From NCBI GenBank assembly GCA_046048995.1, contig JBJOEZ010000006.1:12606-76605 (forward strand): a stretch of DNA of 64,000 bases, given 5' to 3'. Below the pieces are notes generated by a model that searched no databases, was not told the DNA's origin, and worked only from the letters and a program-made list of their open reading frames with translations. The DNA comes from Verrucomicrobiota bacterium. GTDB taxonomy: Bacteria > Verrucomicrobiota > Verrucomicrobiia > Limisphaerales > JADJPG01. The position numbers and the translations under genes were made by a program. Shown here one piece after another: positions 1,279 through 39,392 of the stretch (position 1 is its first letter; each line of letters begins with the position of its first letter).

Positions 1279-1317
1279 GCGGCAGGGAGGCTAGCAGTTC
1301 CTGGCTGAAGGCCGCCA

Positions 1318-4600: not shown

Positions 4601-5835
4601 CCGTCTCCCCCCCGCTCACCCACGGCACGCTCCTCGTCAATGACCTTCCCGTCATCCTGCCGGGCCAGTCGACGGGCTCGGTCGCCCTCACCAAGGGCCT
4701 GCACAGCGTCAAGGTTCGCTCCGTCTCCACCAACCTTTGCCTCGTCAGCCGCATCACCCTGGCCGGCTTGGGCGCCCCGCCCGCCCCCAGCCTCACCGCG
4801 TGGCTCGATGGCGACGGCTCGGTCACCCTCGGCTGGACCCCCGTCGCCGGCGCCACCCGCTACGAGATCCGCCACGGAACCGTCTCCGGGTTCCACACCG
4901 CCCTCGTCGATGCCGGCACAGCCACCTCGTTCACCCTCACGGGCCTCACCAACGGCCTGCCGATCTTCGTCGTCGTCGTGGCCGAGAACACCGCCGGCCT
5001 CAGCCAGCCTTCCAACGAACGCGGCCTCATTCCCACCGCCGCCGGCCAGGGGGCCGGGCTCGCCCTCTGGGAATTCGCCGGAGCCGCCGGCCACGAATCC
5101 AACGCCCTGCCCCACGCCGCCACGGCCCGCCTCAGTGTCTCCCCCCTCACCCGCGGCCCCGGCCTGCTGCCCAGCACCAGCGAATGGGCGGTGAACCTCC
5201 GCGCCAACCGCTTCGCCAGCGAACCCCCCGCCAGCCTCGGCCACCTCTACGCTTCCAACCTCACCCACAGCATCACCCTGCAGCAGTTCTACCAGTTCAC
5301 CGTCGCCCCGGTTCCCGGCCACTTCCTCTCGCTCTCCCAGCTCACCTTCCGCGCCTTCTTCCAAAACGCCCGCGGCGGCGCCGGCCTGACCTTCAGTACC
5401 AACGGCTCCACCTTCATCACCGCTCCCGCCCCGGCCGGATCCCCTGCGTCCAGCCAGACGCCCTGGACCGCGACGCTGGCCTCAGTGCCCGCCCTGCAAG
5501 GCCTCGCCTCGCCCGTCATCTTCCGCCTGCACCTCCACGGGCTCGGTCCCTACGAAGTCTCCGGACTGGGCGACCCCGCGGGCTCCGACCTGATCCTGAT
5601 CGGATCCCTGCAGCCGGTCGCCCTCCCGTTGTCCGCCTCCCGCGTGGCCGGGCCGGGATTCATCCAGCTGGCCTGGGCCACCAACTCCTGGATCTATCAC
5701 CTCGAGACGAAACCCAACCTCGATCCTGCCCTGCCCTGGATTCGCCTGACCAACGCGCCGTCCCTGCAGGACGGCCAGTGGCGCCTCACCCTGCCCGCCC
5801 TCGATCCCCAGCGATTTTACCGCCTCGTGCCCTGA
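1639..5835 (+). CDS. Giant secreted PA14-domain and fibronectin-III-domain protein (1398 aa), possibly glycoside-hydrolase-like in the centre
   Basis: The signal peptide is MKLSSCLFLAAALAIGLPVSLPAAQG. A PA14-like N-terminus reads GLVGEYFANTNLAG...FSVRWTG...YTFQ. An FN3 unit reads SLTAWLDGDGSVTLGWTPVAGATRYEIRHG. The central segment YLELENELWN resembles the clan GH-A N-E acid/base motif, which is weak evidence. The track ORF starts at 1339 inside the repeat array; I prefer ATG 1639, with 1603 as an alternative. Confidence 0.8.
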   Translation: MKLSSCLFLAAALAIGLPVSLPAAQGGGYLLAGLVGEYFANTNLAGTPGFTRRDVRLDFRQNSLPPGGAGQVGDLPFRSVPATGFSVRWTGRCVPRFTESYTFQALASGPVRLRLRPAGQAAWNTVLDDPAPGPGGATGSANLSQGVPCDLEVTFRHGDGPWSLRLLWSGPSTPLEVIDPVVQSGINNPPWTSGFTDIIKGARNSWEPVNGGTRPALDTNGWPHGDAGYYFQESLNHGMDLDPQMRGRVRFSFRGSAAVQVRGNVQPGSLTFQYHAASNLTTGSFLAASNGWNASFLSFTNSRRNGLPDGPPGFTDLRLMRPVAPDALASFDPDTTLFTPELLRAMEHFTVIRHQLVANQQRDWEERTRPGWFNQSGGAISPPHYGIGDPSDNGLSWEHKVLLANETGRDLMLSVPTLASGREPADTTSYLVRLARLIAHGSDGVEPYPSPVANPVYPPLNPNLRVYLELENELWNFFSVFYVDFANINAITAADADANNADFQVINFDGLSTAREAGGGYVSMNTWRYRKIMLRLIQMSDIFRSVFGDDAMMTRVRPLYEWQYANDNDTARLALTFADRYFNNGDGRPHVPNPRPVRHWLWGGGGATYYGAANGNGLTDLVPNPSFASPGLAPGYHRSPAGAGWAFTGNAGIAVDGGPGDDIPPAFRGTQMGYLTDQSSITISVTFPATVTSPVFGVSFKAVNRIPAGGSAANRQNVRVYLDGTNDITARTFSQGNGYTAPGYNPEYPWTANNVFWAYSDYYFTRSFTVEPGSTHTLTVRGLGDPANPGATNQTVFLGDVRVTSVDRIFEDGIPGGGEAAGQPVGQNIQQTMNVEASWAKAFGLEQVSYEGGWSLGGDDGGSWVQLKAKYGDPRTAEAQGRFMDMFHLAGSAINVFGTYAQWPTWADYYAEQGLLDISRYPIIQGIDDRASRLPPEAAQGVIVPATLLPAMAALDDGANASLGRITTAGGWIHWNVLSPRRGDYQVTVSPPLTHGTLLVNDLPVILPGQSTGSVALTKGLHSVKVRSVSTNLCLVSRITLAGLGAPPAPSLTAWLDGDGSVTLGWTPVAGATRYEIRHGTVSGFHTALVDAGTATSFTLTGLTNGLPIFVVVVAENTAGLSQPSNERGLIPTAAGQGAGLALWEFAGAAGHESNALPHAATARLSVSPLTRGPGLLPSTSEWAVNLRANRFASEPPASLGHLYASNLTHSITLQQFYQFTVAPVPGHFLSLSQLTFRAFFQNARGGAGLTFSTNGSTFITAPAPAGSPASSQTPWTATLASVPALQGLASPVIFRLHLHGLGPYEVSGLGDPAGSDLILIGSLQPVALPLSASRVAGPGFIQLAWATNSWIYHLETKPNLDPALPWIRLTNAPSLQDGQWRLTLPALDPQRFYRLVP

Positions 5836-5848
5836 CCCAGGCTGCGCC

Positions 5849-7651
5849 CTAGCGGCCACCCGCATCGCGTGGACCGGCTGCGGGCATCGGTCGCGCCAGG
5901 GCCGCGTCCACGGCCGTGATCGCCTCGCGCAGGATCTCCGGCCGGACCGCCCCGGTGAAGCGCCCCTCGATGCGACCGTCCCGGGCCAGCACCAGCACAT
6001 TGGCCACGCCCGGCCGCAGCCCCAGCTGCGCGGAGGCCTCCCCGGACCAATCCATCATCACCGGGTACTTGCGTTGTTCCTGGAATTTTTTCCGCACCCG
6101 CCCGCGCAGCAGGCCGGGCACTCCCCGCACATCGGCCAGGCCGCGAATCTCGACGCGTCCGCCATGCCGCTCCTTGAGGGCTGTCACCCAGCCATCGATT
6201 TCATCCGACCCCTTCCGGTCGGCCAGGAAGAGGACCACGACATTGGTGTGCGGAAACCCCAGCTGCTGCGGTTGCTCGTATTGGTCGGCCAACGCCAGGC
6301 GATCCGGGGCCCGCGTCACCGGGGTGGCCGGGGCGGATTTGGGCTCCGCCGCATCGGCGCCAAGCAAGCCTGCCCGCAACAACCAGGCGCAGGCCAGCAG
6401 AAGCACAATTGCCACGAGCCAGGCGCCCACCGACCAGCGCGTCCGCGGGACACCCGCGGGACCGGCTTGGAGGCCGGAAGCGGGGGCATCACCGGTTCCA
6501 GCCGCATAGCGGCGACCCTTCCATTCCATGGGTCGGCCAAGGCAGTGCCGAGCCAGGGCCTGCCACTGGATGACGAGCAGGGCCAGCACACCCATGGGAT
6601 GCAGCAGGGCGCTGCCGAGGGGTTGGCGGAACAGGACCACGCCGAGCAGACGCGGCAGCCACGACAGCGCCGCCGCTGCCCCGGCCAAGCCCAGCGCCTT
6701 GGCTGACAGCCATGGCGCGGCAGCCAGCAGGACCCAGGGCAGGACTTGTCCGCCCAGCAGCAGGAGGGTCATGGGCAGGATGGTTCCCGGGGCGGCCAGA
6801 CCCTCCGTCGCATTCTTGCCCAGGCCGCGCCATGTTTCGGCACTGCTTCTATACATCCGGCAGGTGGCCAAGTCGGTGGCGTCGAACAGGTCGGTGCCCA
6901 ACCCGGCCCGCCGGAATGCCCGCGGCAGCTTGACGCCGTCGTGGAGCGAGTCGCGCAGCATGGCATGGCCGCCGCAGCGCTCGTAGGCATCCCGCCACGA
7001 CACGAACAGCTGGCCGCAGCCCGCCGAGGCCGCCCCCCAGCAGGTCAGGCGCATGAGGAACATGGGCAGGTAGCCGAGCAGGACGAAATGGATGAGCGGG
7101 ATGAGCAGGCGCTCCCCCCACGTGCCGAGGTCCTGGGCGGGCACGCCGCTGGCCAGGGCCACGGGGCGCCCCGGACGCCGCCGGCCTCGCTCCATGAAAT
7201 CCGCCATCCGGCCCAGCGCATCCGGGGCCAGTCGCACATCGGCGTCGAGGAACACCAGCAGGGGATGCCGCGCCAGGCGGGCCAGCACATGACAGGCATG
7301 CTGTTTCCCGCACCAGCCAGGGGGCAGGGCCGGGGCCGATTCGAGCCGGAGCCGCGGATCGCCGGCGGCGAGGTCCCGCACGATGCGGGCGGTGGCGTCC
7401 GTGGAATGGTCGTCGAGGACGACCACCTCAAAGTCGGCCTCCCGGCTGGCCAACACGGCCGTCAGCGTGGCCCGGATGTTGGCCTCCTCATTGCGGGCCG
7501 GGATGAGGACGGAGAGCCGCGGACGCGCCGGGCAGGAGGTCGCCGGGAGGGCGCGCGGGAGCCGCCGATAGAGGGCGAGGTTGAGGAGGAAGAGGGTGGC
7601 CGGGATGGCGGCCAGTCCCAGCGCGACCAGCGTGAGGACGTCCGGAATCAT
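5849..7651 (-). CDS. Family-2 glycosyltransferase (carotenoid glycosyltransferase CrtQ-like) with multi-pass membrane region and C-terminal thioredoxin-fold-like domain
   Basis: GT2 signatures are LSVLIPARNEE, VVVLDDHSTD and FLDADV (DxD). Several hydrophobic segments follow. The C-terminal ~150 aa resemble a TlpA/redoxin fold (NVVVLFLADRKGSDE...NVLVLARDGRIEGRF) but contain no CxxC. The start at 7651 forms an ATGA overlap with the upstream stop (7648-7651); the track's alternative start is 7690. Confidence 0.75.
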   Translation of the reverse strand: MIPDVLTLVALGLAAIPATLFLLNLALYRRLPRALPATSCPARPRLSVLIPARNEEANIRATLTAVLASREADFEVVVLDDHSTDATARIVRDLAAGDPRLRLESAPALPPGWCGKQHACHVLARLARHPLLVFLDADVRLAPDALGRMADFMERGRRRPGRPVALASGVPAQDLGTWGERLLIPLIHFVLLGYLPMFLMRLTCWGAASAGCGQLFVSWRDAYERCGGHAMLRDSLHDGVKLPRAFRRAGLGTDLFDATDLATCRMYRSSAETWRGLGKNATEGLAAPGTILPMTLLLLGGQVLPWVLLAAAPWLSAKALGLAGAAAALSWLPRLLGVVLFRQPLGSALLHPMGVLALLVIQWQALARHCLGRPMEWKGRRYAAGTGDAPASGLQAGPAGVPRTRWSVGAWLVAIVLLLACAWLLRAGLLGADAAEPKSAPATPVTRAPDRLALADQYEQPQQLGFPHTNVVVLFLADRKGSDEIDGWVTALKERHGGRVEIRGLADVRGVPGLLRGRVRKKFQEQRKYPVMMDWSGEASAQLGLRPGVANVLVLARDGRIEGRFTGAVRPEILREAITAVDAALARPMPAAGPRDAGGR

Positions 7652-8562
7652 TCCGGCGTATGGTCCGGGGTGAAGGACTCGCCGCGGCAACGGGCCCGGA
7701 ACGAACGCCAGAGATCATAGATGCCGCCCTGTCCTGCGCCCCCGCGCAGCAGCACCCGGAAGGCGGCGGGATCGCGCTGGCGCGCCTCGGCGGCGAGGAC
7801 GTCCTGGGTGGCCGCCAGCCGCTGCTCGAGCAACGCGCTGCGCTCGGCGACCGCGAGGGGGGCCACGCTGGCCCGGCCCAGCACGAGGGGCTCGCCAAAG
7901 CGCACGAGGACCTCCGGCAGGCGGTCATCCCAGAAGATAAACTCGGTGGCCATGGGCAGGAACATGGCCTGATGAACCCGGCCGGCCAGGTGGGCCAGCC
8001 CGGGCTGGAACCGCAGCGGCCGCTCGCGAACGTCGGCAAAGCGGCCCTGCGGGGTGACGGCCAGGATGCGGCCGGGTTCCCGCAGGATGGCCTCACTCGT
8101 GCGGAGAAAATCCACCGCCCCGCGCCGCGTGCCCTGTTCGACCCCGAAGAACCCCATCCGGCCAAACATCCGATAGCGCCGCAGCATGGCCGCATCGATG
8201 GGCGCATACAACTGGTGGTGGGGATAGAAAGCCGACTTCAGGAACAGTCCCACCAGGGGATCCCACCAGGACGCATGGTTGGCGTAGAGGACGAGGGGCA
8301 GCGTGGGGGCCGCGGGAGGCGGAGCGGATCGGGACACGCGGACGGCGTGGAAATGTTTCCGGATATAGCGCCGGCAGTAGCCGGTGAACCAGTGCAGCAG
8401 CAGCGGCGAAATGGCCGGCAGGGGGGGAACAGCCTCGAGGCCCGCCCCGGCGTCGACCGGGGCGCGGTCGGTCCGGGGCGGGTCGAGGGAGAGCGGGGCT
8501 GTCAATGGCCCAAGTCCCCCGGTCGGGGGGTGCAAGGAAGGCAATGGCGCCCCAAGTGACAT
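7648..8562 (-). CDS. PlsC-family (lysophospholipid-type) acyltransferase, CrtO-like by context
   Basis: The HX4D acyltransferase motif is NHASWWD. FFGVEQG and LAVTPQGR blocks are also present. It sits 9 nt downstream of the CrtI-family gene and overlaps the GT2 gene by ATGA. Confidence 0.7.
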   Translation of the reverse strand: MSLGAPLPSLHPPTGGLGPLTAPLSLDPPRTDRAPVDAGAGLEAVPPLPAISPLLLHWFTGYCRRYIRKHFHAVRVSRSAPPPAAPTLPLVLYANHASWWDPLVGLFLKSAFYPHHQLYAPIDAAMLRRYRMFGRMGFFGVEQGTRRGAVDFLRTSEAILREPGRILAVTPQGRFADVRERPLRFQPGLAHLAGRVHQAMFLPMATEFIFWDDRLPEVLVRFGEPLVLGRASVAPLAVAERSALLEQRLAATQDVLAAEARQRDPAAFRVLLRGGAGQGGIYDLWRSFRARCRGESFTPDHTPE

Positions 8563-8571
8563 GGCGACAAC

Positions 8572-10155
8572 TCAGGCTTCGACCAAATCGGCCTGGCGCC
8601 GGCCGGCTGCCCCGGCCGTCCGGGTTGCGCCCGGCTGGGCAGCCTTGTCCTGATGGAGGGTGTCGGCGGCAATCCAGCCGCTCATGAGGACCATGGGCAT
8701 GCCCGGCCCGGGATGGGCGGCGCCGCCCGCGAGATACAGGCCCTCGAGATCCGGGGAACGATTCCCGGGCTTGAAGGCGCCGAGGAACCGGCCATGGCTG
8801 GCCAGCCCGTAGATGGCGCCGTTCAGGACCTGGTAGCGGTCGTGGATGTCCTGCGGGGTGAGGGTGGCCTCGAAGACGATGCGGTCCTCGAGATCGGGCA
8901 TCTGCCCGGTGCTCTTGAGTTTCTCGATGATGACCTTCCGGTAGGCGGGCAGCATCTTCTTCCAGTCGTGGTGCGGGCGCAGGTAGGGGGTGTGGACCAG
9001 TACGTAGAGGGCCTCGCCGCCGGCCGGGGCGGTGGCCGGCTCGCTGCAGGTCGTGGCGGCCAGGTAGCAGGTCGGATCCGGCGCCGGCTCGCCCCGCTTG
9101 TAAATCCAGTCGAACTCCTCCTCGGGATCGCGGCTGAACACGAAGTCGTGGTGGGCCAGGTGGTCATAGCGCTTCTTGAGACCGAGGTAGAGGACCACCC
9201 CGGAACAGGCGGGCTCGTATTCCCGGCGGGCATCGAAGCGGGCGCCGATCGAGCCATTGATGAGCTCGCGATGGGTGCGGACCGAGTCGCAATTGGACAC
9301 CACGGCCCGGAGGGGAATCTCCTCGCCGGTGCTGGTGCGGACGCCGGTGACGCGGCCCTTGTCGGTCAGGATCTTGGCCACCTGGGTGCCGGTCCGGATC
9401 TCGACGCCGAGCTCGCGGGCGAGTTTCTCGAGGGCCAGGGGGACGGCGCGGGTGCCGCCCATCGGATACCAGATGCCCTCGCTGGTCTGCATGTGGGCGA
9501 TGCCGCAGAGGACCGCCGGGGACCCGTAGGGGGAACTGCCCACATACTGGGTGAAGTGGTCCATCATCTGGGCCACGCGGGCGTCGGGGGTGAAGGCCCG
9601 CACCGTGCCGGCGACGCTGCGGCCCATGCGCATGGCGAGGACGTCGCCGAGCACCTTGGGATCGAAGCTGGTCTTGAGGTCGAACATGTCGCGCAGGCCG
9701 CCGATCGACTTGTAGAAGAAGTGGCGGTGGGAGATGTCGTTGAGGCGTTCGCTGAGCTGGAGGAAGTCGAGGTAGCGCTGGCCGGAACCCGTGCCCGGGG
9801 CGAAGCGCTCCAGCTCGCCGGTCATGGTCTCGGGATCCTGCATCAGGTTCAGGACCGAGCCGTCCTCGAAGAAACAGCGCCACTGCGGATCCAGCCGGAC
9901 CATGTCGAGGTAATCCTCCATGCGGCGGTCGGCCTCGGCGAAGATGCGCCGGAGGACGGACGGGATGGTGACGATGGTGGGGCCCATGTCGAAGCGGAAG
10001 CCCGCGCCCTCCAGCCGGGCGGCCTTGCCGCCGAGCCATTCGTTGCGTTCGAGGAGGAGAACCTGGTAACCGCGCGCGGCCAGGGTGCAAGCGGCCGCCA
10101 GGCCGGCCAAGCCGCCGCCAATGACGCCAATGTGCTCTTTCGTGTTCTTGCTCAT
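8572..10155 (-). CDS. CrtI-family carotenoid desaturase/oxygenase (CrtP- or CrtD-like)
   Basis: The N-terminal FAD fold is HIGVIGGGLAGLAAACTLAARGYQVLLLERNEWLGGKA. The C-terminal CrtI-type block is GLYLAGGAAHPGPGMPMVLMSG. The ATG at 10155 forms an ATGA overlap with the aldehyde dehydrogenase stop. The track extension to 10326 lacks any family-like sequence. Confidence 0.85.
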   Translation of the reverse strand: MSKNTKEHIGVIGGGLAGLAAACTLAARGYQVLLLERNEWLGGKAARLEGAGFRFDMGPTIVTIPSVLRRIFAEADRRMEDYLDMVRLDPQWRCFFEDGSVLNLMQDPETMTGELERFAPGTGSGQRYLDFLQLSERLNDISHRHFFYKSIGGLRDMFDLKTSFDPKVLGDVLAMRMGRSVAGTVRAFTPDARVAQMMDHFTQYVGSSPYGSPAVLCGIAHMQTSEGIWYPMGGTRAVPLALEKLARELGVEIRTGTQVAKILTDKGRVTGVRTSTGEEIPLRAVVSNCDSVRTHRELINGSIGARFDARREYEPACSGVVLYLGLKKRYDHLAHHDFVFSRDPEEEFDWIYKRGEPAPDPTCYLAATTCSEPATAPAGGEALYVLVHTPYLRPHHDWKKMLPAYRKVIIEKLKSTGQMPDLEDRIVFEATLTPQDIHDRYQVLNGAIYGLASHGRFLGAFKPGNRSPDLEGLYLAGGAAHPGPGMPMVLMSGWIAADTLHQDKAAQPGATRTAGAAGRRQADLVEA

Positions 10156-11744
10156 GCTGTGTCTTTCGGGGATGTCATGCGCCGGCGACCCAGGGTCATG
10201 AGGCGGCGCAACGCCGCCCCGCGCCCCCGGCCCGGCCCATGGAGGAATTGAAGGAATGCCGCAAACAAATCCGCGTCGCCCATCGCCGCGGGGTCCAGGT
10301 GCGGACGCCAGCGCGCCCGGTTCCACTGGATCACCTTGGGCGTGGTCATCTCGAGCAGGCCCTCGGCGCCGCGCGTGACCCCGAACCCGCTGCGGCCGCG
10401 CCCGCCAAACGGGAGGCGCGGGTCGGCCGTGGGGGCCACCATGTCGTTCACCACCACGCCGCCGGCGCGCACGCGCCCGGCCAGCGCCCGGGCCGCCGCC
10501 TCGTCGCGCCCGAACACCGTGGCTCCCAGCGCATAGGGGGACTCCGCCGCCAGGGCGAGGGCCTCGTCATCGCCGTCCACCGCGACCACGCTCAGCACGG
10601 AGGCAAAGACATCCTCGCGCAGCAGGGCTGAACCGCGCGGCACTCCGGCCAGCACCAGGGGCAGCTGCAGGGCGCCGTCGGGGGCGAGGGATCCGGCCAC
10701 GAGGTGAGCCCCGCCGGCCAGGGCCTCCTCAACCAGGGGACGCACGCGGTCGGCGGCCGGGCCGCGGAGGGCGAAGGACGACGACGCGCCGAGGGCGCGG
10801 GCCAGGCGGCCCTCCAGTTCCGTGGCGAGGGAGCGGGGAACAAAGAGCCGGCGCGGGCCGATGCAGGTGGCCCCGCCGTTGAGCTGCAGGCCGAAGGAGA
10901 CGCTGCGCGTGACCAGGTCCAGGTCGGCGTCCGCCCGGACGAACACGGCGTCGCAGCCGCTCAGTTCCATGGTGGAAGGCGTGAGGCGGGGGGCGATTTG
11001 GGCAAGGATGCGGGCGCCGGTGTCGGCGCTGCCGGTGAACACGACCTTGTCGACCCCGGCGCCGAGGGCGGCCTGGGCGGCCTCGGTGGTGTCAGGCAGC
11101 ACCTGGGCGAGGTCGGGGTCGAGCCCGGCCTGATGGAGGAGATCGACGAAGAGGCGCACCGGGGTGGCGCTGCCGGGGGCGGGCTTGAGGAGGACGGCAT
11201 TGCCGGCGGCGAGGGCCTGGAGGGCCTGCACACCGGCGAGGAAGAGGGGATAGTTGCCCGGGCCGATGACGAGGACGACGCCGAAGGGTTCCCGGCGCAC
11301 TTCCGAGCCAATACCGCCCAGCCAAAGGGGGCGGGACCAGAGGCCCGGGCGGCGGGGGCGGAGGAGTCGGGCCGCCTCGCGCTCGAGGAACCGGCAGGCG
11401 GCGGCCAAGGGGAGCACCTCGGCGGTGAGGGCCTCGGCGGCGGGCCGTTGCCGGCAGGCGGCGGAGGCCTCGGCCAGGCGAAGCCCGGCCTCGGCAAAGA
11501 GATGGCGCGCGCGGCGAACAACGTGGAGCCGGGCCGCCAGGGGGGAGGCGGCCCACCGTCCCTGGGACCGGCGGGCCTTGGCAAGAATGGTGGCGATGGA
11601 ATCGGCGCGATCGGTCATGGCCGGACGAGACGCCGGGGCGTCCTGGACATCCGGGGCAGGCGAAGACTCCGGACCAGGGCGGGCAACGCCACGGTCGGAG
11701 GCTGCGTCCACCGCGAGGGATGACCAGGACGGCGCGACATTCAT
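10152..11744 (-). CDS. Aldehyde dehydrogenase (carotenoid aldehyde dehydrogenase by context)
   Basis: ALDH motifs are VVFTGSADTG, the general-base block MELSGCDAVFV, and the catalytic Cys in LNGGATCIGPRRLFV. The start at 11744 forms an ATGA overlap with the upstream stop at 11741. The track extension to 12296 overlaps the upstream gene and is rejected. Confidence 0.85.
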   Translation of the reverse strand: MNVAPSWSSLAVDAASDRGVARPGPESSPAPDVQDAPASRPAMTDRADSIATILAKARRSQGRWAASPLAARLHVVRRARHLFAEAGLRLAEASAACRQRPAAEALTAEVLPLAAACRFLEREAARLLRPRRPGLWSRPLWLGGIGSEVRREPFGVVLVIGPGNYPLFLAGVQALQALAAGNAVLLKPAPGSATPVRLFVDLLHQAGLDPDLAQVLPDTTEAAQAALGAGVDKVVFTGSADTGARILAQIAPRLTPSTMELSGCDAVFVRADADLDLVTRSVSFGLQLNGGATCIGPRRLFVPRSLATELEGRLARALGASSSFALRGPAADRVRPLVEEALAGGAHLVAGSLAPDGALQLPLVLAGVPRGSALLREDVFASVLSVVAVDGDDEALALAAESPYALGATVFGRDEAAARALAGRVRAGGVVVNDMVAPTADPRLPFGGRGRSGFGVTRGAEGLLEMTTPKVIQWNRARWRPHLDPAAMGDADLFAAFLQFLHGPGRGRGAALRRLMTLGRRRMTSPKDTA

Positions 11745-13360
11745 GAGGGACGCCGGGTGGAAAGACCGAAGAACATCGCGGCGGCGTGCAGGAGGCTGGA
11801 TTTCTCCGCGGTGGCCATCTCGTGCCCGCCGCGCGGGGCGATCTCCAGCTGGGGGGAGGCGGGTTCGCCCAGGCCCGCGCCGGGCACGCCGAGGTCCTGG
11901 AGCAGGAGGCGTGAGCTGATGCGGGCGCTCTCGAAGATCACGGGCAGGCCGCTGCCGGGATGGGTGCCGCCCCCGACGAGATACATGCCGTCGAGGTCCT
12001 CGAAGCGGTTGTGCGGCCGCAGGTGCAGCATCTGGTCGAGGGAATGGGCGAGGTTGAAGGTGGCCCCGCGGTAGACCTCGTAGCGCTGGTCCCAGTCGGC
12101 CGGGGTGATGATGCGCTCGTAGCGGACGCGCTTCTCCAGTCCCGCGTAGCCGGCGGCGCCGATGCGGTCGTAGAGGAGCCGCCGGAAGCGGGCCTTCTCG
12201 CGGTTCCAGTCGATGTTCGGATGCTGGTGGGAGACCGGCGAGAGGATGTAGAGGGCGCTGTGTCCCCGGGGGGCCAGGGTGGGGTCGGTGACGCACGCGT
12301 TCTGGACGTAGAAGCTGGGGTCCTCGCTGAGGACGTGGCGCGACTCGATGTCCTCCAGGTTGCCCGCGTAGTCCTTGGCGATGTGGATGGTGTGATGGGG
12401 CAGGTCGAAGGTGCCCTCGACCCCGACATACATCATGAAAGTGGAGCAGGAGTATTTCTTCCTGGCGAGCCGGGCATTGGTCCAGCGGCGGCGCAGGTGG
12501 TCGGGGACGAGGCGTTCCATGGCGCGGGCGAAGTCGGCGTTGACGACGACGGCATCGGCGCGATGGGTGGAGGAGGCGGTGACGACGCCGGTGGCGCGAC
12601 GGCCGGTGAACAGGATTTCCTCGACCGGCTGGTTGAGGCAGATCTCGACGCCGAGGCGGCGGGCAACCCGGGCCATGGCCTCGGAGACGGCGGCGCAGCC
12701 CCCGATGGGGTGCCAGACCCCGTGTTCATACTCGAGGAAGCTGAGGATGCTGAACAGGCTGGGGCAGCGGAACGGCGACATGCCGAGGTATTTCGACTGG
12801 AAGCAGAAGGCCAGCCGGACCCGCTCATCCTTGAAGAAGCGCTTGAGATAGGTTTCGACCGACTGGTGGGGCCGGAGCATGGGGAGCATGCGGAGGAGGC
12901 GGCCCTGGGCCAGGTCCCCCCAGCCGAGGAACGGTCTTTCCAGGCACGGCTCCATGGCGGCGAGCTTGGCGCGGTTCTCATCCAGGAAACGCCGAAAACC
13001 CGGGACATCCCCGGGCGACAGGGCGGCGATCCCCTGCTCCATGCGTTCCACGTCCGGCGTGCAATCCAGCTGGCCGCCCTGTCCGAACTGGATGCGGTAC
13101 TGGGGATCCAGGCGCACCATGGGAACCTCGGCGCGGAGCGTCGTGCCGGCCGCCCGGAAAATCTCGTCGAGGACCCGGGGGTAGAGGAAGAAGGTGGGCC
13201 CGAGGTCGAACTTGTAGCCGTCCGCCTCGATGCGGGAGGTGCGGCCGCCCACGATGGGGAGGCGCTCGAGGACCTTGACCTTGACGCCGGCGGCCGCCAG
13301 CAGGATGGCGGAGGCCAGGCCGCCGGGACCGGCGCCGATGACGATGACTTGTTTGCTCAT
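11741..13360 (-). CDS. CrtI-family phytoene/dehydrosqualene desaturase (CrtI/CrtN-like)
   Basis: The FAD fold is VIVIGAGPGGLASAILLAAAGVKVKVLERLPIVGGR. The C-terminal block is MYLVGGGTHPGSGLPVIFESA. It is the first biosynthetic gene after the sigma factor, with a 22-nt gap. Confidence 0.85.
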   Translation of the reverse strand: MSKQVIVIGAGPGGLASAILLAAAGVKVKVLERLPIVGGRTSRIEADGYKFDLGPTFFLYPRVLDEIFRAAGTTLRAEVPMVRLDPQYRIQFGQGGQLDCTPDVERMEQGIAALSPGDVPGFRRFLDENRAKLAAMEPCLERPFLGWGDLAQGRLLRMLPMLRPHQSVETYLKRFFKDERVRLAFCFQSKYLGMSPFRCPSLFSILSFLEYEHGVWHPIGGCAAVSEAMARVARRLGVEICLNQPVEEILFTGRRATGVVTASSTHRADAVVVNADFARAMERLVPDHLRRRWTNARLARKKYSCSTFMMYVGVEGTFDLPHHTIHIAKDYAGNLEDIESRHVLSEDPSFYVQNACVTDPTLAPRGHSALYILSPVSHQHPNIDWNREKARFRRLLYDRIGAAGYAGLEKRVRYERIITPADWDQRYEVYRGATFNLAHSLDQMLHLRPHNRFEDLDGMYLVGGGTHPGSGLPVIFESARISSRLLLQDLGVPGAGLGEPASPQLEIAPRGGHEMATAEKSSLLHAAAMFFGLSTRRPS

Positions 13361-13382
13361 GAGATGGGGGTAGGGGTCGGGC

Positions 13383-14444
13383 TCAGGCCGTCATGGCGAA
13401 CGATTCGCGTTCCTCCATGAGGGTCCGCAGGCGGCCGAGGGCGAGGTTCTGGAGCTGGCGGATACGCTCCCGGGTCAGGCCCATCATGGCCCCGATGTCC
13501 TCCAGGGTCCGCTCCGTGCCGCCATCGAGGCCGAATCGCAGGCGGAGAATCTGGGCTTCGCGGGCCGGCAGCTTGGGCAGTTGCTCGCGCAGCAGGTCGA
13601 GCTGGGACTCGCGGTCAAGCTCGGCCCCGGGCAGCTGGGCGTTTTCGTCCGCAATCACCTCGGAGAGCCGGCTGGAATCGTCGTCCCCCAGCGGCGCGTC
13701 CAACGAGGCCGGGCGCAGCGACGCCACCCGCAACTCGCCAATGCGGTCCGAGGAAAGACCGAGTTCATCAGCCAATTCCCGCTCCGTCGCATCCCGGCCC
13801 AGCTGCTCGCGCAGCCGCAGCTCCGCCCGGCTCATGTGATACACCTGGTCGGCGGCGTAGACCGGCAGGCGGATGGTTTTGCCCTGCGTGGCCAGCGCGC
13901 GCCGGATGCTCTGGCGAATCCACCAGGAACTGTAGGTCGACAACTTGGCCCCCTTGCGCGGGTCAAACCGGTCCACCGCAATCATCAGCCCGATGTTGCC
14001 CTCGTTGATCAAGTCCAGCAGGGGCAGGCCGAGGTGTTCATATTCCCGGGCGATCTTGATGACAAAGCGGAGGTTGGCCCGAATCATGTGTTCCCGGGCG
14101 GCAGCGTCACCCCGGCGAATCCGCTTGGCCAGCTGAATTTCCTCCTGGGCCGTCAACAACGGCACCTGGCCGGCATCCCTCATGTAGAGGGAAAGCGGGG
14201 AACTGAGCTCGGGGGTAGGCAGCGAGACCGCAGCCGCCTTGGCCACCGGGGTCGCCTTGGCCACCTTGGCCGGCGCCGGGGAGGGAGCGGGGACAGCCCC
14301 CCGGCCCGCCGCCAGTTTCGCAGCCCGGGCCTTGGGCGTCAGGGTCCGGGCATTGCAGGTCAGTTGGATTTGGAGGCTACGACGCGCACCATTTTTCGAG
14401 GCAACGCGGACCTTCTTGGGCAGGCGGGCTTGGGAGCGGCTCAT
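13383..14444 (-). CDS. Sigma-70 family RNA polymerase sigma factor (regions 2-4 present, no region 1.1)
   Basis: Region 2 reads LIRANLRFVIKIAREY...DLINEGNIGLMIAVDRFDPRKGAKLSTYSSWWIRQSI. Region 4 reads LPAREAQILRLRFGL...TLEDIGAMMGLTRERIRQLQNLAL. The N-terminus is basic and Ala/Pro/Lys-rich. Confidence 0.85.
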   Translation of the reverse strand: MSRSQARLPKKVRVASKNGARRSLQIQLTCNARTLTPKARAAKLAAGRGAVPAPSPAPAKVAKATPVAKAAAVSLPTPELSSPLSLYMRDAGQVPLLTAQEEIQLAKRIRRGDAAAREHMIRANLRFVIKIAREYEHLGLPLLDLINEGNIGLMIAVDRFDPRKGAKLSTYSSWWIRQSIRRALATQGKTIRLPVYAADQVYHMSRAELRLREQLGRDATERELADELGLSSDRIGELRVASLRPASLDAPLGDDDSSRLSEVIADENAQLPGAELDRESQLDLLREQLPKLPAREAQILRLRFGLDGGTERTLEDIGAMMGLTRERIRQLQNLALGRLRTLMEERESFAMTA

Positions 14445-14520
14445 AATCGTGTTTTGTTGCGGGTTAGGGATTCAGGCTTCCAAACGTGCAGGGCTATGAC
14501 AGAGCTAGATTTGTGTTCAG

Positions 14521-14549
14521 ATAATGTCTACGTTTTGTTTATATGTCAA
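14521..14549 (-). promoter_or_regulatory. Candidate sigma-70-type promoter of the sigma/carotenoid operon: TTGACA-N17-CATTAT
   Basis: The reverse complement of 14521-14550 reads gTTGACAtataaacaaaacgtagaCATTAT. This gives a perfect -35, a 17-nt spacer and a 4/6 -10. It lies about 75-105 nt upstream of the sigma ATG (14444), in the only AT-rich stretch of the window. Confidence 0.5.
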
Positions 14550-14575
14550 CACTTTGTCTATAAAATGTTGATGTT
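14524..14575. promoter_or_regulatory. Cluster of five 11-bp-phased direct repeats nTGTnnAnnTn (candidate CarH/LitR operator) over the -35/spacer/-10
   Basis: The repeats are aTGTctAcgTt (14524), tTGTttAtaTg (14535), aTGTcaAcaCt (14543), tTGTctAtaAa (14554) and aTGTtgAtgTt (14565). Three match fully and two lack the final T. The register is 11 bp, with one 8-bp step. Confidence 0.4.
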
Positions 14576-14669
14576 TGAAAAAGCATTTTCAAATGACTGA
14601 CTGACAAGCATTTAAATTATGAATAAACCTATCGGAAACTGAAAACGAAACTTGATTTACGAAACCGTA

Positions 14670-14691
14670 ATGTCTACTCTTTGTCTATCTA
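14670..14691. promoter_or_regulatory. Second pair of the same 11-bp direct repeats, immediately upstream of the regulator start codon
   Basis: The repeats are aTGTctActCt (14670) and tTGTctAtcTa (14681). They end 2 nt before ATG 14694. Confidence 0.3.
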
Positions 14692-14693
14692 AC

Positions 14694-15668
14694 ATGAGTG
14701 ACGTTGGACATTCGATGAAGTGGGTGGCGCGGCGCACGGGATTGAGTGCGCATGTCATCCGCGTATGGGAGCGGCGTTACGGGGCGGTGGCGCCGCTGCG
14801 GACGGGCACGAATCGTCGGCGTTACTCGGAGGCGGACATTGAGCGGCTGTATCTGCTGCGGCGGCTGACGGAAGTGGGGCACAGCATTGGGGACATTGCG
14901 GCGCTGCCCTTGGATCGCCTGCAGGCGATGGGAGCTGGATTGCCGCCGAACGGGCATGCGACGGAGCTGCCGGCGAAGGTTTTGGGGAAGCCCCGGGCCC
15001 TGCCGGCGGCGGCAGACCCTGCGCCCCTGCTGCTGAAGCAATGCCTGGCCGCGGTGCAGGCCTTGGATGCCGAGGCCCTGAAGGGGGCCCTGGCTGAGGC
15101 GGGAGTGTTGTTGGGCAGCCAGGGATTGCTGCAACGGGTGATTGCCCCGCTGGCCCAGAAAGTGGGCGAACTCTGGCGGGAAGGCGTCATCACGGCTGCC
15201 CATGAACATTTTGCGACCGCCGTGCTCCGCACGATCCTGAGTCATTCCATGAAGCCCTTTGCGGCGGTGCCGGGGGCGCCGGTGCTGGTGGTGGCGACGC
15301 CGGCGGGGCAACTGCACGAGCTGGGCGCCCTGCTCGTGGCCTCGGCCGCCTCAAACCTGGGGTGGCGCATCCTCTATCTGGGCGCGGCCCTCCCGGCCGC
15401 CGAGATTGCCGGGGCGGTCCGCCAAAGCGGCGCGCGGGCCCTGGCGTTGAGCCTGGTTTATCCCGAGGAGGATGCGGACCTGCCCGCGGAACTGCTGCGC
15501 CTGCGCGAGTTGCTCCCGGCCGGCCTGCCGGTACTGGCGGGCGGCCGGGCCATGACCGCCTACCGCGGCGCCCTGCAGCAAATGGGCGCCCTCCAGATCG
15601 GCGACCTCAACGACCTTTGCACGAAACTGGACGACATCCGAACCCAGTCCCGTCCTTTCCCCGCTTGA
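14694..15668 (+). CDS. carH: MerR-family, B12-binding light-sensing transcriptional regulator (CarH/LitR type)
   Basis: The MerR HTH is WVARRTGLSAHVIRVWERRYGAVAPLRTGTNRRRYSEADIERL. A Wx9EH motif (WREGVITAAHEH, nt 15174-15209) sits in the helical-bundle region. The Rossmann B12 motif is GQLHELG (His codon 15315-15317), followed by LSLVY and LAGG. The start is ambiguous between 14652 TTG, 14670, 14694 and 14715. I chose 14694 by alignment of the HTH with remembered CarH N-termini. Confidence 0.8.
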   Translation: MSDVGHSMKWVARRTGLSAHVIRVWERRYGAVAPLRTGTNRRRYSEADIERLYLLRRLTEVGHSIGDIAALPLDRLQAMGAGLPPNGHATELPAKVLGKPRALPAAADPAPLLLKQCLAAVQALDAEALKGALAEAGVLLGSQGLLQRVIAPLAQKVGELWREGVITAAHEHFATAVLRTILSHSMKPFAAVPGAPVLVVATPAGQLHELGALLVASAASNLGWRILYLGAALPAAEIAGAVRQSGARALALSLVYPEEDADLPAELLRLRELLPAGLPVLAGGRAMTAYRGALQQMGALQIGDLNDLCTKLDDIRTQSRPFPA

Positions 15669-15874
15669 AAACCTTCTTCACCCCCAACATTTCCGGCAAG
15701 GGCCGCCTCGTGCGCGGCCTGGGCGCCCTGGCCCTCCTCATCGGGGCCGGCTTTGGCTTCACCGTGTCCCCCTGGCTGGGTGCCGTGCTTTTAATTTCCG
15801 GCGCCTTCGTGGCCTTTGAGGCCCTGCGCGGGTGGTGCGTGATGCGCGCCTGCGGCATCAAGACCAAGCTCTGA
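15665..15874 (+). CDS. Small DUF2892 (YgaP-like) two-TM membrane protein
   Basis: The TTG start overlaps the carH TGA stop (TTGA, 15665-15668). The sequence NISGKGRLVRGLGALALLIGAGFGF...GWCVMRACGIKTKL matches my recollection of the DUF2892 pattern. Confidence 0.6.
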   Translation: MKTFFTPNISGKGRLVRGLGALALLIGAGFGFTVSPWLGAVLLISGAFVAFEALRGWCVMRACGIKTKL

Positions 15875-15956
15875 AACCCGCACCCGCACCGCCCAACCCG
15901 CTTACGCGGGTTGCTACGCTGTAGCAGCGGACGTCAGTCCGCTGAGGCCCCGCCCC
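15875..15956. repeat. Solo copy of the structured repeat seen at 1318-1568
   Basis: It has the same three hairpins: caacccgc-ttac-gcgggttg, gttgctac-gct-gtagcagc and cagcggac-gtca-gtccgctg. The last stem carries a compensatory A>G / T>C pair relative to the tandem copies. Confidence 0.75.
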
Positions 15957-16055
15957 CTGGAGGAGGTCTTCGCCTTCTTTTCCGACGCCCACAACCTGCA
16001 GGATCCCACCCCGCCCTGGGTTCATTTCCAGGTCCTGACCCCCGCCCCGCTTGCC

Positions 16056-16385
16056 ATGCGCGCCGGGACGCTCATCGACTACCGCATCCGCATCCATGGC
16101 TTCCCCATCCGGTGGCGCACGGAAATCCAGGACTGGTCGCCCCCGCACCAGTTCGTCGATGTGCAGTTGCGCGGGCCCTACCTCCTCTGGCACCACACCC
16201 ACACCTTCGAGGCGCGCGACGGGTGGACCCTGTGCCGGGAAGTCGTCCGCTACCGGCCCTTCGGCGGCGCGCTCATCCACCGGCTGTTTGTCCGCCGCGA
16301 CGTGGAGCGCATCTTCGCCTTCCGGCGGGACCGGCTCGCCGCCCTCTTTCACGCCGTTCGCCCCGCCGCCGCCCCCGCAGCCTGA
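16056..16385 (+). CDS. SRPBCC (cyclase/dehydrase, START-like) family protein, apparently 5'-truncated
   Basis: The family-like core is GTLIDYRIRIHGFPIRWRTEIQDWSPPHQFVDVQLRGPYLLWHHTHTFE. Family-like sequence (PLEEVFAFFSDAHNL...) continues in frame upstream to 15954 without any ATG/GTG/TTG. This may be a pseudogene or may use a CTG start. Confidence 0.5.
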   Translation: MRAGTLIDYRIRIHGFPIRWRTEIQDWSPPHQFVDVQLRGPYLLWHHTHTFEARDGWTLCREVVRYRPFGGALIHRLFVRRDVERIFAFRRDRLAALFHAVRPAAAPAA

Positions 16386-16397
16386 GCGGCGGACCCC

Positions 16398-39391: not shown

Positions 39392-39392
39392 C

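What the first reader, a model, noticed from the sequence alone, without database searches (positions are those of the whole stretch)
5849..15874. CarH-type B12 photoreceptor divergent from a sigma-70 gene that heads a translationally coupled carotenoid-acid glycoside-ester operon
- **Gene order.** On the minus strand the order is sigma-70 (14444-13383), CrtI-family desaturase, aldehyde dehydrogenase, second CrtI-family enzyme, PlsC-type acyltransferase, and a GT2 glycosyltransferase.
- **Coupling.** Three junctions are ATGA start/stop overlaps (11741-11744, 10152-10155, 7648-7651). The other two gaps are 22 and 9 nt. The six genes therefore look like one coupled unit.
- **Pathway analogy.** The enzyme set matches the post-synthase part of the staphyloxanthin-type C30 route (CrtN, CrtP, AldH, CrtQ, CrtO). 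I recall this route also being reported as squalene-derived in Planctomycetes. No CrtM/CrtB/HpnCDE synthase is in the window.
- **Regulator.** The divergent gene is a MerR regulator whose C-terminus has the photoreceptor signature Wx9EH (WREGVITAAHEH) plus the lower-ligand motif QLHELG. It is not just a generic B12-binding domain.
- **Why it matters.** A photoreceptor controlling a dedicated group-2/3-like sigma factor that is co-transcribed with its own target pathway would be a self-amplifying light switch. I am not aware of this being described for this lineage.
Basis: partly seen in the sequence, partly recalled or inferred. Interest (0 to 1): 0.7.

Follow-up and report, generated by a model that had tools for sequence, protein, structure and literature searches.

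The report
B12 light switch controlling sigma-carotenoid operon
A freshwater Verrucomicrobiota genome carries a vitamin-B12-type light-sensor repressor whose binding sites sit on the promoter of an operon encoding an extra sigma factor plus enzymes for a C30-type carotenoid acid glycoside ester; this is a new lineage and a new variant of a well-known bacterial light-response design, not a new principle.

Summary
The six minus-strand genes, the three ATGA overlaps, the 22- and 9-nt gaps and the divergent MerR/B12 regulator are all present. Two corrections:
- The regulator ends at 15668. Positions 15665-15874 are a separate, translationally coupled 69-aa DUF2892 gene.
- The lineage is Verrucomicrobiota (Limisphaerales/Pedosphaerales-like, freshwater MAG), not Planctomycetes.

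New evidence:
- **Operator.** The AT-rich intergenic region holds CarH-type 11-bp direct repeats (TnnACA). They cover a TTGACA -35 and the -10 of the operon promoter, with a second pair just before the carH ATG.
- **Conservation.** This layout recurs in dozens of related genomes, whatever gene comes first in the operon.
- **Sigma factor.** It is a group-2-like sigma-70 paralogue. It lies between carH and crtN in 25 of 46 related loci, is absent or deleted in the others, and once occurs with carH but without crt genes.
- **Transcription.** A metatranscriptome shows the operon transcribed in situ. One contig spans the sigma/crtN junction, and coverage stops near the predicted start site.

Best reading: direct CarH repression of a housekeeping-type promoter. 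The sigma factor is a light-induced passenger that probably widens the light regulon. The "self-amplifying" loop is neither needed nor shown. This is a new variant of the CarH/LitR-LitS theme and is moderately interesting.

The parts
5849..7651 (-). GT2 glycosyltransferase, CrtQ-like, 600 aa. Residues ~400-600 form a C-terminal extension with no assigned domain.
   Evidence: Pfam Glycos_transf_2 76.3 bits. NCBIfam HpnB-like 113.8 and CruG-like 84.8 bits, both below cut-off. 25% identity to S. pasteuri CrtQ (E 7e-24) and 52% to the Azospirillum cluster GT. The C-terminal 200 aa have no significant Pfam hit.
7648..8562 (-). PlsC-like acyltransferase, a functional analogue of CrtO.
   Evidence: Pfam Acyltransferase 20.8 bits, below the 23-bit cut-off. 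An HX4D motif (NHASWWD) is visible in the sequence. 45% identity to the lysophospholipid acyltransferase of the Azospirillum cluster. No homology to staphylococcal CrtO.
8572..10155 (-). CrtP-type carotenoid oxygenase (crtI-family 2).
   Evidence: crtI_fam 406.5 bits. Groups with S. pasteuri CrtP (289 bits, against 218 for CrtN) in the NJ tree. PDB: CrtD-like 4REP scores above CrtI 4DGK.
10152..11744 (-). Aldehyde dehydrogenase (carotenoid aldehyde to acid).
   Evidence: Pfam Aldedh 274.7 bits. 55% identity to the AldH next to the Azospirillum cluster.
11741..13360 (-). CrtN/CrtI-type desaturase (crtI-family 1).
   Evidence: crtI_fam 538.7 bits. PDB CrtI 4DGK 287.6 bits. Lies in the CrtN+CrtI clade. 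61% identity to the first crtI gene of the Azospirillum cluster.
13383..14444 (-). Group-2-like sigma-70 family sigma factor, 353 aa, with a basic Lys/Ala/Pro-rich N-terminal tail. First gene of the operon.
   Evidence: Pfam regions 1.2, 2, 3 and 4. Best PDB matches are SigA/RpoD/SigB/RpoS. All NCBIfam equivalog models score below cut-off. Found between carH and crtN in 25 of 46 related loci.
14514..14560 (-). Operator site B together with the operon promoter. Four TnnACA repeats: TAGACA 14560-14555, TTGACA 14549-14544 (the -35), TAGACA 14530-14525 and TGAACA 14519-14514. The -10 is CATTAT at 14526-14521. Predicted transcription start is about 14514.
   Evidence: Repeats. This is the best sigma-70-type promoter match in 5600-16500, at 10 of 12 positions. 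The same layout occurs in 34 related loci. RNA-like coverage ends at 14500.
14671..14687 (-). Operator site A: TAGACA-N5-TAGACA, ending 6 nt before the carH ATG.
   Evidence: One or two repeats occupy the same position in most related loci.
14694..15668 (+). carH/litR-type MerR-B12 photoreceptor repressor, 324 aa.
   Evidence: Pfam MerR_1, B12-binding_2 and B12-binding. T. thermophilus CarH E 7e-27 over both domains. Motifs RVWERRY, Wx9EH and QxHxxG-x41-SxV-x27-GG.
15665..15874 (+). DUF2892/YgaP-like small membrane protein, 69 aa. Its TTG start overlaps the carH stop codon.
   Evidence: Pfam YgaP-like_TM 25.9 bits. Junction read. Homologues lie beside carH or directly upstream of crtN in more than 40 related loci.
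15948..16385 (+). SRPBCC/polyketide-cyclase-like gene, conserved downstream of carH. Here it lacks its first ~10 codons and its start codon.
   Evidence: Pfam Polyketide_cyc 26.2 bits. Conserved in about 35 loci. N-terminus compared with homologues.

Best explanation
**What it is.** This is a CarH/LitR-type, coenzyme-B12-dependent light switch in a freshwater Verrucomicrobiota genome.

**In the dark (inferred).**
- AdoCbl-loaded CarH oligomers bind two pairs of 11-bp-spaced TnnACA direct repeats.
- These repeats cover the -35 (TTGACA) and -10 of a housekeeping-type promoter.
- A further pair sits just upstream of the carH start codon.
- Binding would block transcription of the divergent operon and probably of carH itself.

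**In the light (inferred from the family).**
- Photolysis of AdoCbl releases CarH.
- The primary RNA polymerase holoenzyme then transcribes one mRNA, sigma-crtN-aldH-crtP-acyltransferase-GT2. Co-transcription is shown only for the sigma/crtN junction.

**What the products do.**
- The enzymes convert a precursor made elsewhere, most likely squalene or dehydrosqualene, into an acylated glycosyl ester of a C30 carotenoic acid. No synthase gene is linked to the cluster.
- The co-induced group-2-like sigma factor is not needed for crt expression.
- It most likely redirects RNA polymerase to further light-response genes elsewhere in the genome. It would act as a LitS-like second tier.
- It may also contribute to its own promoter.
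For: **Regulator.**
- All CarH domains are present and the closest solved structure is CarH.
- RxWE(K/R)RY occurs in 51 of 52 relatives and Wx9EH in 51 of 52.

**Operator.**
- The repeats fit the published CarH operator: tandem 11-bp nnnnTnnACAn repeats, one of which contains the -35 TTGACA (PMC9304148).
- In the window, TAGACA occurs 5 times in 64 kb on both strands, and 4 of these lie in 14525-14687.
- Across 80 related loci (2.57 Mb counting both strands) there are 29 T[AT]GACA-N5-T[AT]GACA pairs. Of these, 27 lie within 350 bp of a carH start. The other 2 also lie beside crtN or carH.
- 34 loci share the consensus TaaACAAAnnTTGACA-N13-TAGACAaanTaTagACA.

**Promoter.**
- TTGACA-17-CATTAT is the best sigma-70-type match in 11 kb.
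- The intergenic region is 35% GC in a ~70% GC genome.

**Sigma is dispensable for crt.**
- 13 loci have carH directly divergent from crtN, with the same operator.
- 8 loci have other genes in that position (SDR, fasciclin, small membrane proteins).
- L005 keeps only an internally deleted sigma remnant.

**Sigma belongs to the CarH module.**
- Sigmas linked to carH/crt form one large clade (NJ tree).
- L082 keeps carH, the operator and sigma, with no crt genes downstream.

**Transcription.**
- Metatranscriptome X2 covers 3270 of 8652 nt of the operon but only 787 of 23349 nt outside it.
- One contig (13276-13464) spans the sigma stop and the crtN start.
- Coverage ends at 14500, 14 nt short of the predicted start site.
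- No credible minus-strand terminator lies inside the operon.
Against: - No experiment or dataset here tests light or B12 dependence.
- The B12 motif begins with Q, not the canonical D/E (QxHxxG in 48 of 48 relatives). Cobalamin binding is therefore inferred, not shown.
- The NCBIfam CarH equivalog model scores 116.7 bits against a cut-off of 400.
- The repeat pairs are 19 bp apart, not in 11-bp register. No characterised CarH operator has this geometry.
- RNA-like coverage is patchy. aldH and GT2 have none, so a single full-length transcript is not demonstrated.
- The run is labelled "METATRANSCRIPTOMIC WGS" and is held only as contigs without strand information.
- The sigma's targets are unknown.
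Confidence: 0.72

Rival explanations
1. LitR-LitS-like obligatory cascade with positive feedback. CarH controls only the sigma promoter. The operon sigma is then required to transcribe its own operon and the crt genes, giving a self-amplifying switch.
For: - carH is divergent from a sigma gene, as litR is from litS (PMC11519972).
- Sigmas linked to carH form a conserved clade.
- The sigma keeps the region 4.2 motif TRERIRQ. From my own knowledge of E. coli sigma-70, these residues read a TTGACA -35. The sigma could therefore use its own promoter.
Against: - An identical promoter/operator precedes crtN directly in 13 loci that lack the sigma gene. One relative carries a deleted sigma remnant.
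- Only 22 nt separate sigma and crtN, and an RNA-like contig spans that junction.
- The promoter is a canonical housekeeping type.
Confidence: 0.15
2. The cluster makes a C40 carotenoid glycoside ester, with a CrtI-type phytoene desaturase, rather than a C30 squalene- or dehydrosqualene-derived pigment.
For: crtI-1 scores higher against C40 CrtI (Roseobacter 302 bits, Pantoea 281 bits) than against staphylococcal CrtN (263 bits). In the NJ tree it sits beside the CrtI references. PDB CrtI 4DGK scores 287.6 bits.
Against: - crtI-2 groups with CrtP, and an AldH is present. Together these are the C30 acid-forming pair.
- No crtB, crtE or crtY is linked in the window or in any of 136 related loci.
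- Loci labelled Planctomycetota/Gemmataceae carry 64-67% identical orthologues. The planctomycete pathway has been shown to be C30 via squalene (PMC9907078).
- Verrucomicrobial Rubritalea makes C30 diapolycopenedioic acid xylosyl esters (PMC3967232).
Confidence: 0.12
3. The regulator acts as a B12-availability sensor or a B12-independent MerR repressor (CarA- or class II LitR-like), not as a light sensor.
For: The canonical Asp/Glu of the DxHxxG motif is replaced by Gln throughout the clade. The residue after Trp is mostly Arg, not the His that ligates cobalt in light-exposed T. thermophilus CarH.
Against: - Wx9EH is intact. This motif distinguishes B12-dependent CarH from CarA (PMC9304148).
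- The lower-ligand His and the SxV and GG elements are at canonical spacing.
- The regulated genes are photoprotective pigment genes.
Confidence: 0.08

Closest known systems
CarH of Thermus thermophilus, Bacillus megaterium and Myxococcales (AdoCbl photoreceptor repressor of carotenoid genes)
   Same: - Same three-part protein: MerR wHTH with RxWERRY, a Wx9EH helical bundle, and a Rossmann B12 domain.
- Operator built of 11-bp-spaced TnnACA direct repeats, one of which is the -35 TTGACA.
- carH is divergent from the carotenoid genes.
   Different: - QxHxxG replaces D/ExHxxG.
- Arg, not His, follows the Trp.
- The repeats form a 2+2 split arrangement. Each pair has 11-bp spacing, and the pairs are 19 bp apart, covering both -35 and -10.
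- An extra pair lies at the carH start codon.
- The phylum is Verrucomicrobiota.
- The target is a C30-type acid glycoside-ester cluster that also carries a sigma gene.
LitR-LitS of Streptomyces coelicolor/griseus
   Same: The B12 photoreceptor gene is divergent from a sigma factor gene, with a shared bidirectional control region. The sigma belongs to the light-induced carotenoid response.
   Different: - LitS is an ECF (group 4) sigma and is required for a separate crtE promoter.
- Here the sigma has regions 1.2, 2, 3 and 4 (group-2-like).
- The crt genes are fused to it in one transcription unit.
- The same promoter works in relatives that lack the sigma.
Squalene-route C30 carotenoid pathway of Planctopirus limnophila (crtN, crtP, aldH, crtQ, crtO) and the staphyloxanthin crtOPQMN operon
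   Same: A CrtN/CrtI-type desaturase, CrtP-type oxygenase, AldH, GT2 and an acyltransferase. As in the squalene route, no synthase is in the cluster.
   Different: - The acyltransferase is PlsC-like and not homologous to staphylococcal CrtO.
- The GT2 carries an unassigned ~200-aa C-terminal extension.
- Regulation by CarH has not been reported for these pathways in the papers searched.
Azospirillum carotenoid cluster with the adjacent RpoE-ChrR pair
   Same: The same aldH/crtN/crtP/acyltransferase/GT gene set at 45-69% identity. A sigma factor is encoded nearby.
   Different: The sigma is an ECF factor with a ChrR anti-sigma (a singlet-oxygen type signal). There is no B12 photoreceptor, and the sigma is not in the crt operon.

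Membership tests
CarH/LitR class I (AdoCbl-dependent photoreceptor repressors) | N-terminal MerR-type wHTH with the RxWERRY recognition-helix motif | tested here: met
   MerR_1 63.3 bits. RVWERRY is in the sequence. RxWE(K/R/Q)RY occurs in 51 of 52 relatives.
CarH/LitR class I (AdoCbl-dependent photoreceptor repressors) | Helical-bundle B12-binding_2 domain with an intact Wx9EH motif | tested here: met
   PF02607 37.8 bits. WREGVITAAHEH is present. The motif occurs in 51 of 52 relatives. Criterion taken from PMC9304148.
CarH/LitR class I (AdoCbl-dependent photoreceptor repressors) | Rossmann B12 motif D/ExHx2G/P-x41-SxT/V-x22-27-GG | tested here: inconclusive
   The His, Gly, x41-SLV and x27-GG elements are all in place. 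The first residue is Gln instead of Asp/Glu, and this holds in 48 of 48 relatives.
CarH/LitR class I (AdoCbl-dependent photoreceptor repressors) | Operator of tandem 11-bp TnnACA direct repeats overlapping promoter elements | tested here: met
   This rests on sequence and conservation only. Protein binding was not tested.
CarH/LitR class I (AdoCbl-dependent photoreceptor repressors) | AdoCbl binding and light-induced oligomer disassembly | not testable with these tools
   Needs purified protein.
CarH/LitR class I (AdoCbl-dependent photoreceptor repressors) | NCBIfam equivalog NF052513 score cut-off | tested here: not met
   116.7 bits against a cut-off of 400. The protein is a distant family member, not an equivalog by that model.
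LitR-LitS cascade | The partner sigma is an ECF (group 4) factor | tested here: not met
   Regions 1.2 and 3 are present. The best PDB matches are SigA/RpoD/RpoS.
LitR-LitS cascade | crt promoter dependent on the partner sigma | tested here: inconclusive
   Comparative evidence argues against necessity, because the same promoter occurs in loci without sigma. There is no functional test.
Group 2 (non-essential primary-like) sigma factors | Regions 1.2, 2, 3 and 4 are present, region 1.1 is absent, the protein resembles the primary sigma, and it is dispensable | tested here: met
   - Domains.
- RpoD/RpoS models score 266-283 bits, all below their equivalog cut-offs.
- The gene is absent from, or deleted in, many close relatives.
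C30 carotenoic-acid glycoside-ester pathway (CrtN, CrtP, AldH, CrtQ, CrtO) | CrtP-type oxygenase | tested here: met
   crtI-2 groups with S. pasteuri CrtP: 289 bits, against 218 for CrtN.
C30 carotenoic-acid glycoside-ester pathway (CrtN, CrtP, AldH, CrtQ, CrtO) | CrtN (C30-specific) desaturase, as opposed to C40 CrtI | tested here: inconclusive
   crtI-1 lies in the CrtN+CrtI clade and scores higher against CrtI references. Gene context favours C30.
C30 carotenoic-acid glycoside-ester pathway (CrtN, CrtP, AldH, CrtQ, CrtO) | CrtQ-type GT2 and an aldehyde dehydrogenase | tested here: met
   The GT2 matches S. pasteuri CrtQ (E 7e-24). Aldedh scores 274.7 bits.
C30 carotenoic-acid glycoside-ester pathway (CrtN, CrtP, AldH, CrtQ, CrtO) | Acyltransferase homologous to staphylococcal CrtO | tested here: not met
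   No tblastn match, E above 5. The gene here is PlsC-like, as in the Azospirillum cluster (45% identity).
C30 carotenoic-acid glycoside-ester pathway (CrtN, CrtP, AldH, CrtQ, CrtO) | Pigment chemistry (C30 backbone, glycosyl ester, acylation) | not testable with these tools
   Needs HPLC-MS.

The most novel reading that the evidence does not exclude
Many Verrucomicrobiota may have a dedicated "light sigma". This would be a group-2-like sigma-70 paralogue whose synthesis is gated directly by a B12 photoreceptor through a split 2+2 direct-repeat operator. It would switch on a genome-wide photoprotective regulon beyond the carotenoid genes. That would be a light-to-sigma cascade built with a primary-like rather than an ECF sigma. 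The repeatedly co-recruited genes (DUF2892, SRPBCC, SDR, fasciclin) would be conserved light-regulon members.
Probability: 0.4. Interest if true: 0.6.

Novelty: new variant of a known kind. Interest (0 to 1): 0.45.

Why it matters
- **Reach of the mechanism.** It would extend B12-based photoregulation to Verrucomicrobiota, an abundant freshwater and soil phylum with few genetic models. It would also link it to the recently defined C30 pigment route.
- **A testable operator.** The operator is very clean and conserved, which gives a ready prediction for CarH DNA-binding geometry: two tandem pairs 19 bp apart, rather than three or four contiguous repeats.
- **A natural experiment.** The variable presence of a primary-like sigma factor under photoreceptor control shows how regulatory tiers are gained and lost.
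- **Applied use.** The compact carH-operator-promoter cassette could serve as a light-inducible expression module for PVC-group bacteria.

Tried and rejected
- **Exact-sequence look-up of the sigma protein:** not on record.
- **Planctomycete origin:** rejected, because the best 80 genome loci are almost all Verrucomicrobiota MAGs.
- **Precursor synthase:** searched the window with Pfam on about 45 ORFs. Also ran tblastn with S. pasteuri CrtM and Roseobacter CrtB against the window and all 136 loci. Nothing was found.
- **GT2 C-terminal extension:** tried to assign a domain. Only sub-threshold hints appeared (Redoxin, E 0.057).
- **Other CarH boxes in the window:** none outside 14514-14687.
- **Sigma as the housekeeping sigma** (JGI names relatives "primary sigma factor"): rejected, because it is missing or deleted in close relatives.
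- **Literature:** a search for CarH or LitR together with Verrucomicrobia or Planctomycetes found no relevant paper.
- **Light/dark inference from the metatranscriptomes:** not possible, because no sampling metadata were available and the runs are held only as contigs.

Full report
**1. The observation**

The window is about 70% GC. The junctions read as claimed:
- ATGA overlaps lie at 11741-44, 10152-55 and 7648-51.
- A 22-nt gap lies between the sigma stop (13383) and the next start (13360).
- A 9-nt gap lies between 8572 and 8562.

Domain searches confirm each family:
- Sigma has Sigma70 regions 1.2, 2, 3 and 4.
- The two FAD enzymes score 538.7 and 406.5 bits on TIGR02734 crtI_fam (cut-off 238.1). 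This removes the "generic amine oxidase" refuter.
- AldH scores 274.7 bits on Aldedh.
- GT2 scores 76.3 bits on Glycos_transf_2.
- The acyltransferase hit is weak (20.8 bits, cut-off 23), but the HX4D motif is present.

The divergent regulator has MerR_1, B12-binding_2 and B12-binding, all above their cut-offs. This removes another refuter.

Two corrections are needed.
- The regulator runs 14694-15668, not to 15874. The last 210 nt (15665-15874) are a separate 69-aa DUF2892/YgaP-like membrane protein. Its TTG start overlaps the carH TGA stop.
- The lineage is not Planctomycetes. Taking crtI-1 as query, the 80 best loci in one-genome-per-species GTDB contigs are almost all Verrucomicrobiota MAGs (Limisphaerales, Pedosphaera-like, "subdivision 3") at up to 83% identity.

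The window itself is held almost completely by a freshwater metagenome run.

**2. The regulator is CarH-type**

Its best solved relative is T. thermophilus CarH/LitR (3WHP, 5C8D), at E 7e-27 with both the DNA-binding and the B12 domains aligned. I applied the criteria in PMC9304148 to the sequence.
- RVWERRY is present.
- Wx9EH is present (WREGVITAAHEH).
- The B12 motif reads QLHELG-x41-SLV-x27-GG.

The only deviation is Gln where Asp/Glu is canonical. Across 52 CarH homologues from related loci, Wx9EH is kept in 51. All 48 with a recognisable B12 motif have the Gln, so this is a clade trait and not decay. The NCBIfam CarH equivalog model scores only 116.7 bits against a cut-off of 400. It is therefore a distant family member.

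**3. The operator and promoter**

The 249-bp carH-sigma spacer is 35% GC. It contains three copies of a 21-nt element. Read on the operon strand, these are TnnACA hexamers spaced 11 bp apart.
- TAGACA at 14560-55
- TTGACA at 14549-44
- TAGACA at 14530-25
- TGAACA at 14519-14
- A second pair, TAGACA-N5-TAGACA, at 14687-71, ending 6 nt before the carH ATG

This is the published CarH operator unit: tandem 11-bp nnnnTnnACAn repeats, one holding the -35 TTGACA (PMC9304148).

A blind consensus scan of 5600-16500 gives TTGACA-17-CATTAT at exactly this place as the best promoter, at 10 of 12 positions. TAGACA occurs five times in the whole 64-kb window on both strands, and four of these are here.

The layout is conserved.
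- In 2.57 Mb (both strands) of 80 related loci there are 29 T[AT]GACA-N5-T[AT]GACA pairs.
- 27 of them lie within 350 bp of a carH start codon.
- The other two also lie beside crtN or carH.
- 34 loci share TaaACAAAnn-TTGACA-N13-TAGACAaanTaTagACA.

The two repeat pairs are 19 bp apart start to start, which is out of 11-bp register. They bracket both the -35 and the -10. I did not find this geometry described for the characterised operators.

**4. The sigma factor**

It is a 353-aa sigma-70 family protein with regions 1.2-4 and a basic Lys/Ala/Pro-rich N-terminal tail. It is most similar to primary and group-2 sigmas (SigA, RpoD, Mtb SigB, RpoS). From my own knowledge of E. coli sigma-70:
- Region 4.2 (TRERIRQ) is identical to the -35-reading residues.
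- Region 2.4 reads WWIRQSIRR, with Arg where sigma-70 has Thr440.

It is not the housekeeping sigma. Among 46 related loci with divergent carH and crtN, the arrangement varies:

| Content between carH and crtN | Loci |
|---|---|
| sigma | 25 |
| nothing (under 450 bp) | 13 |
| other genes (SDR, fasciclin, small membrane proteins) | 8 |

L005 retains an in-frame remnant, with region 1.2 fused to the C-terminal tail. All these loci keep the same operator and promoter in front of whatever gene comes first.

A sigma-centred metagenome scan and an NJ tree show the converse.
- Sigmas linked to carH/crt form one large clade. The tree is NJ, unbootstrapped and indicative only.
- Homologues at 60% identity or less are unlinked.
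- One member (L082) keeps carH, the operator and sigma, but with unrelated genes downstream.

So the sigma is a genuine, recurrent member of the CarH-controlled module. It is dispensable for crt transcription.

**5. Transcription evidence**

Run X2 is labelled metatranscriptomic and is held as contigs.
- It covers 3270 of 8652 nt of the operon at 99% identity or better.
- It covers only 787 of 23349 nt of the flanking sequence examined.
- This distribution is RNA-like, not DNA-like.
- One contig (13276-13464) spans the sigma stop and the crtN start.
- Coverage stops at 14500, 14 nt short of the predicted start site.
- carH itself has no coverage.
- aldH (74% GC) and GT2 are also uncovered, so a full-length transcript is not shown.
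- Nothing can be said about light.

No minus-strand terminator above chance lies within the operon.

**6. The pathway**

crtI-2 groups with staphylococcal CrtP, identified by its position in the S. pasteuri crtOPQMN plasmid operon. It scores 289 bits against CrtP and 218 against CrtN.

crtI-1 lies in the CrtN+CrtI clade. It scores higher against C40 CrtI (302 and 281 bits) than against staphylococcal CrtN (263 bits). PDB 4DGK and 4REP show the same trend.

Other members of the enzyme set:
- The GT2 is homologous to CrtQ (E 7e-24).
- The acyltransferase is PlsC-like and unrelated to staphylococcal CrtO.
- The same five-gene set occurs on Azospirillum megaplasmids at 45-69% identity, next to an RpoE-ChrR pair.

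No CrtM/CrtB-family gene is linked in the window or in any of 136 loci. This fits a precursor drawn from a separate squalene pathway, as shown in Planctopirus. That paper also reports CrtN in Verrucomicrobia (PMC9907078). Verrucomicrobial Rubritalea makes C30 diapolycopenedioic acid xylosyl esters (PMC3967232). C30 is therefore the better reading, but it is inferred.

**7. Mechanism and comparison**

The best-supported model is direct CarH repression of a housekeeping-type promoter. Light-triggered release would then allow transcription of sigma plus the pigment enzymes. The sigma would serve as a second-tier output.

This combines two known designs.
- Direct CarH control of crt operons, as in Thermus, Bacillus and Myxococcales.
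- The LitR-LitS photoreceptor-to-sigma arrangement of Streptomyces (PMC11519972).

It differs from both in four ways.
- The sigma class is primary-like, not ECF.
- Sigma and crt are fused in one unit.
- The operator is split 2+2.
- The B12 motif is QxHxxG.

It is neither required nor evidenced.

I found no paper in the searchable library that links CarH or LitR with Verrucomicrobia or Planctomycetes.

**8. Verdict**

This is a real and well-conserved feature. It is a new variant of a known kind and is of moderate interest (0.45).

Noticed in passing
window 1318-1567 and 15883-15950: A REP-like 63-nt element with two hairpins (AACCCGC-TCAC-GCGGGTT and AACGGAC-GTCA-GTCCGTT). It forms 3.9 tandem copies at 1318-1567, and one dispersed copy lies between the DUF2892 gene and the SRPBCC gene. 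The source metagenome shows about 580x depth and contig breaks at the second copy, against about 62x elsewhere. The element is therefore multi-copy, and the assembly is uncertain at that point.
   Followed up: partly
window 15948-16385 (+): The SRPBCC/polyketide-cyclase-like gene is conserved downstream of carH in about 35 related loci. Here it lacks the conserved N-terminus (M-K-E-F-x-F-x-T-E-L-W) and any canonical start codon. REP-like element sequence replaces the missing part. It may be a pseudogene, an alternative start, or an assembly artefact.
   Followed up: partly
window 15665-15874; loci L018, L024, L037, L045, L050, L056, L061 and others: A 69-aa DUF2892/YgaP-like membrane protein is almost always linked to this module. 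It is either coupled to the carH stop codon or sits directly upstream of crtN. Its function is unknown. It looks like a core member of the light module.
   Followed up: partly
L004, L005, L008, L017 (fasciclin); L001, L003, L006, L027, L036, L048, L051 (SDR): The slot between the CarH-controlled promoter and crtN is a hotspot where different genes are inserted: a secreted FAS1/fasciclin protein, a short-chain dehydrogenase, and small membrane proteins beginning MF(N/E)Y(L/V)FPIF. L004 carries an SDR fragment and L005 a sigma remnant, which shows recent turnover.
   Followed up: partly
window 5849-6451 (GT2 residues ~400-600): The CrtQ-like glycosyltransferase carries a ~200-aa C-terminal extension. 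The extension is present in only some relatives (L016, L018, L020, L038, L046, L055). It has no significant Pfam match, only a sub-threshold redoxin-like hint.
   Followed up: partly
window 13383-14444, N-terminal ~85 residues of sigma: The sigma factor has a basic Lys/Ala/Pro-rich, histone-H1-like N-terminal tail. This tail is poorly conserved among relatives. Alignments to homologues start at about residue 85.
   Followed up: no
window 21549-37562: Two very large divergent genes (about 1968 and 1956 aa) encode proteins with multiple Lamin-tail domains plus a CotH kinase-like domain. They flank a 946-aa LamG/Ig-domain protein and a PQQ beta-propeller protein. They are probably secreted or surface proteins typical of PVC bacteria.
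   Followed up: no
window 1-1290, 39387-40904, 47156-48406: Two sulfatases and a sulfotransferase are present. This is consistent with the sulfated-polysaccharide lifestyle reported for Verrucomicrobiota.
   Followed up: no
L081 (Azospirillum ramasamyi plasmid, NZ_CP029831.1 66146-85627): The same aldH/crtN/crtP/acyltransferase/GT cluster lies about 5 kb from an ECF sigma with a ChrR anti-sigma pair, and it is followed by a sulfotransferase. This is an independent pairing of the pigment cluster with a sigma factor.
   Followed up: no
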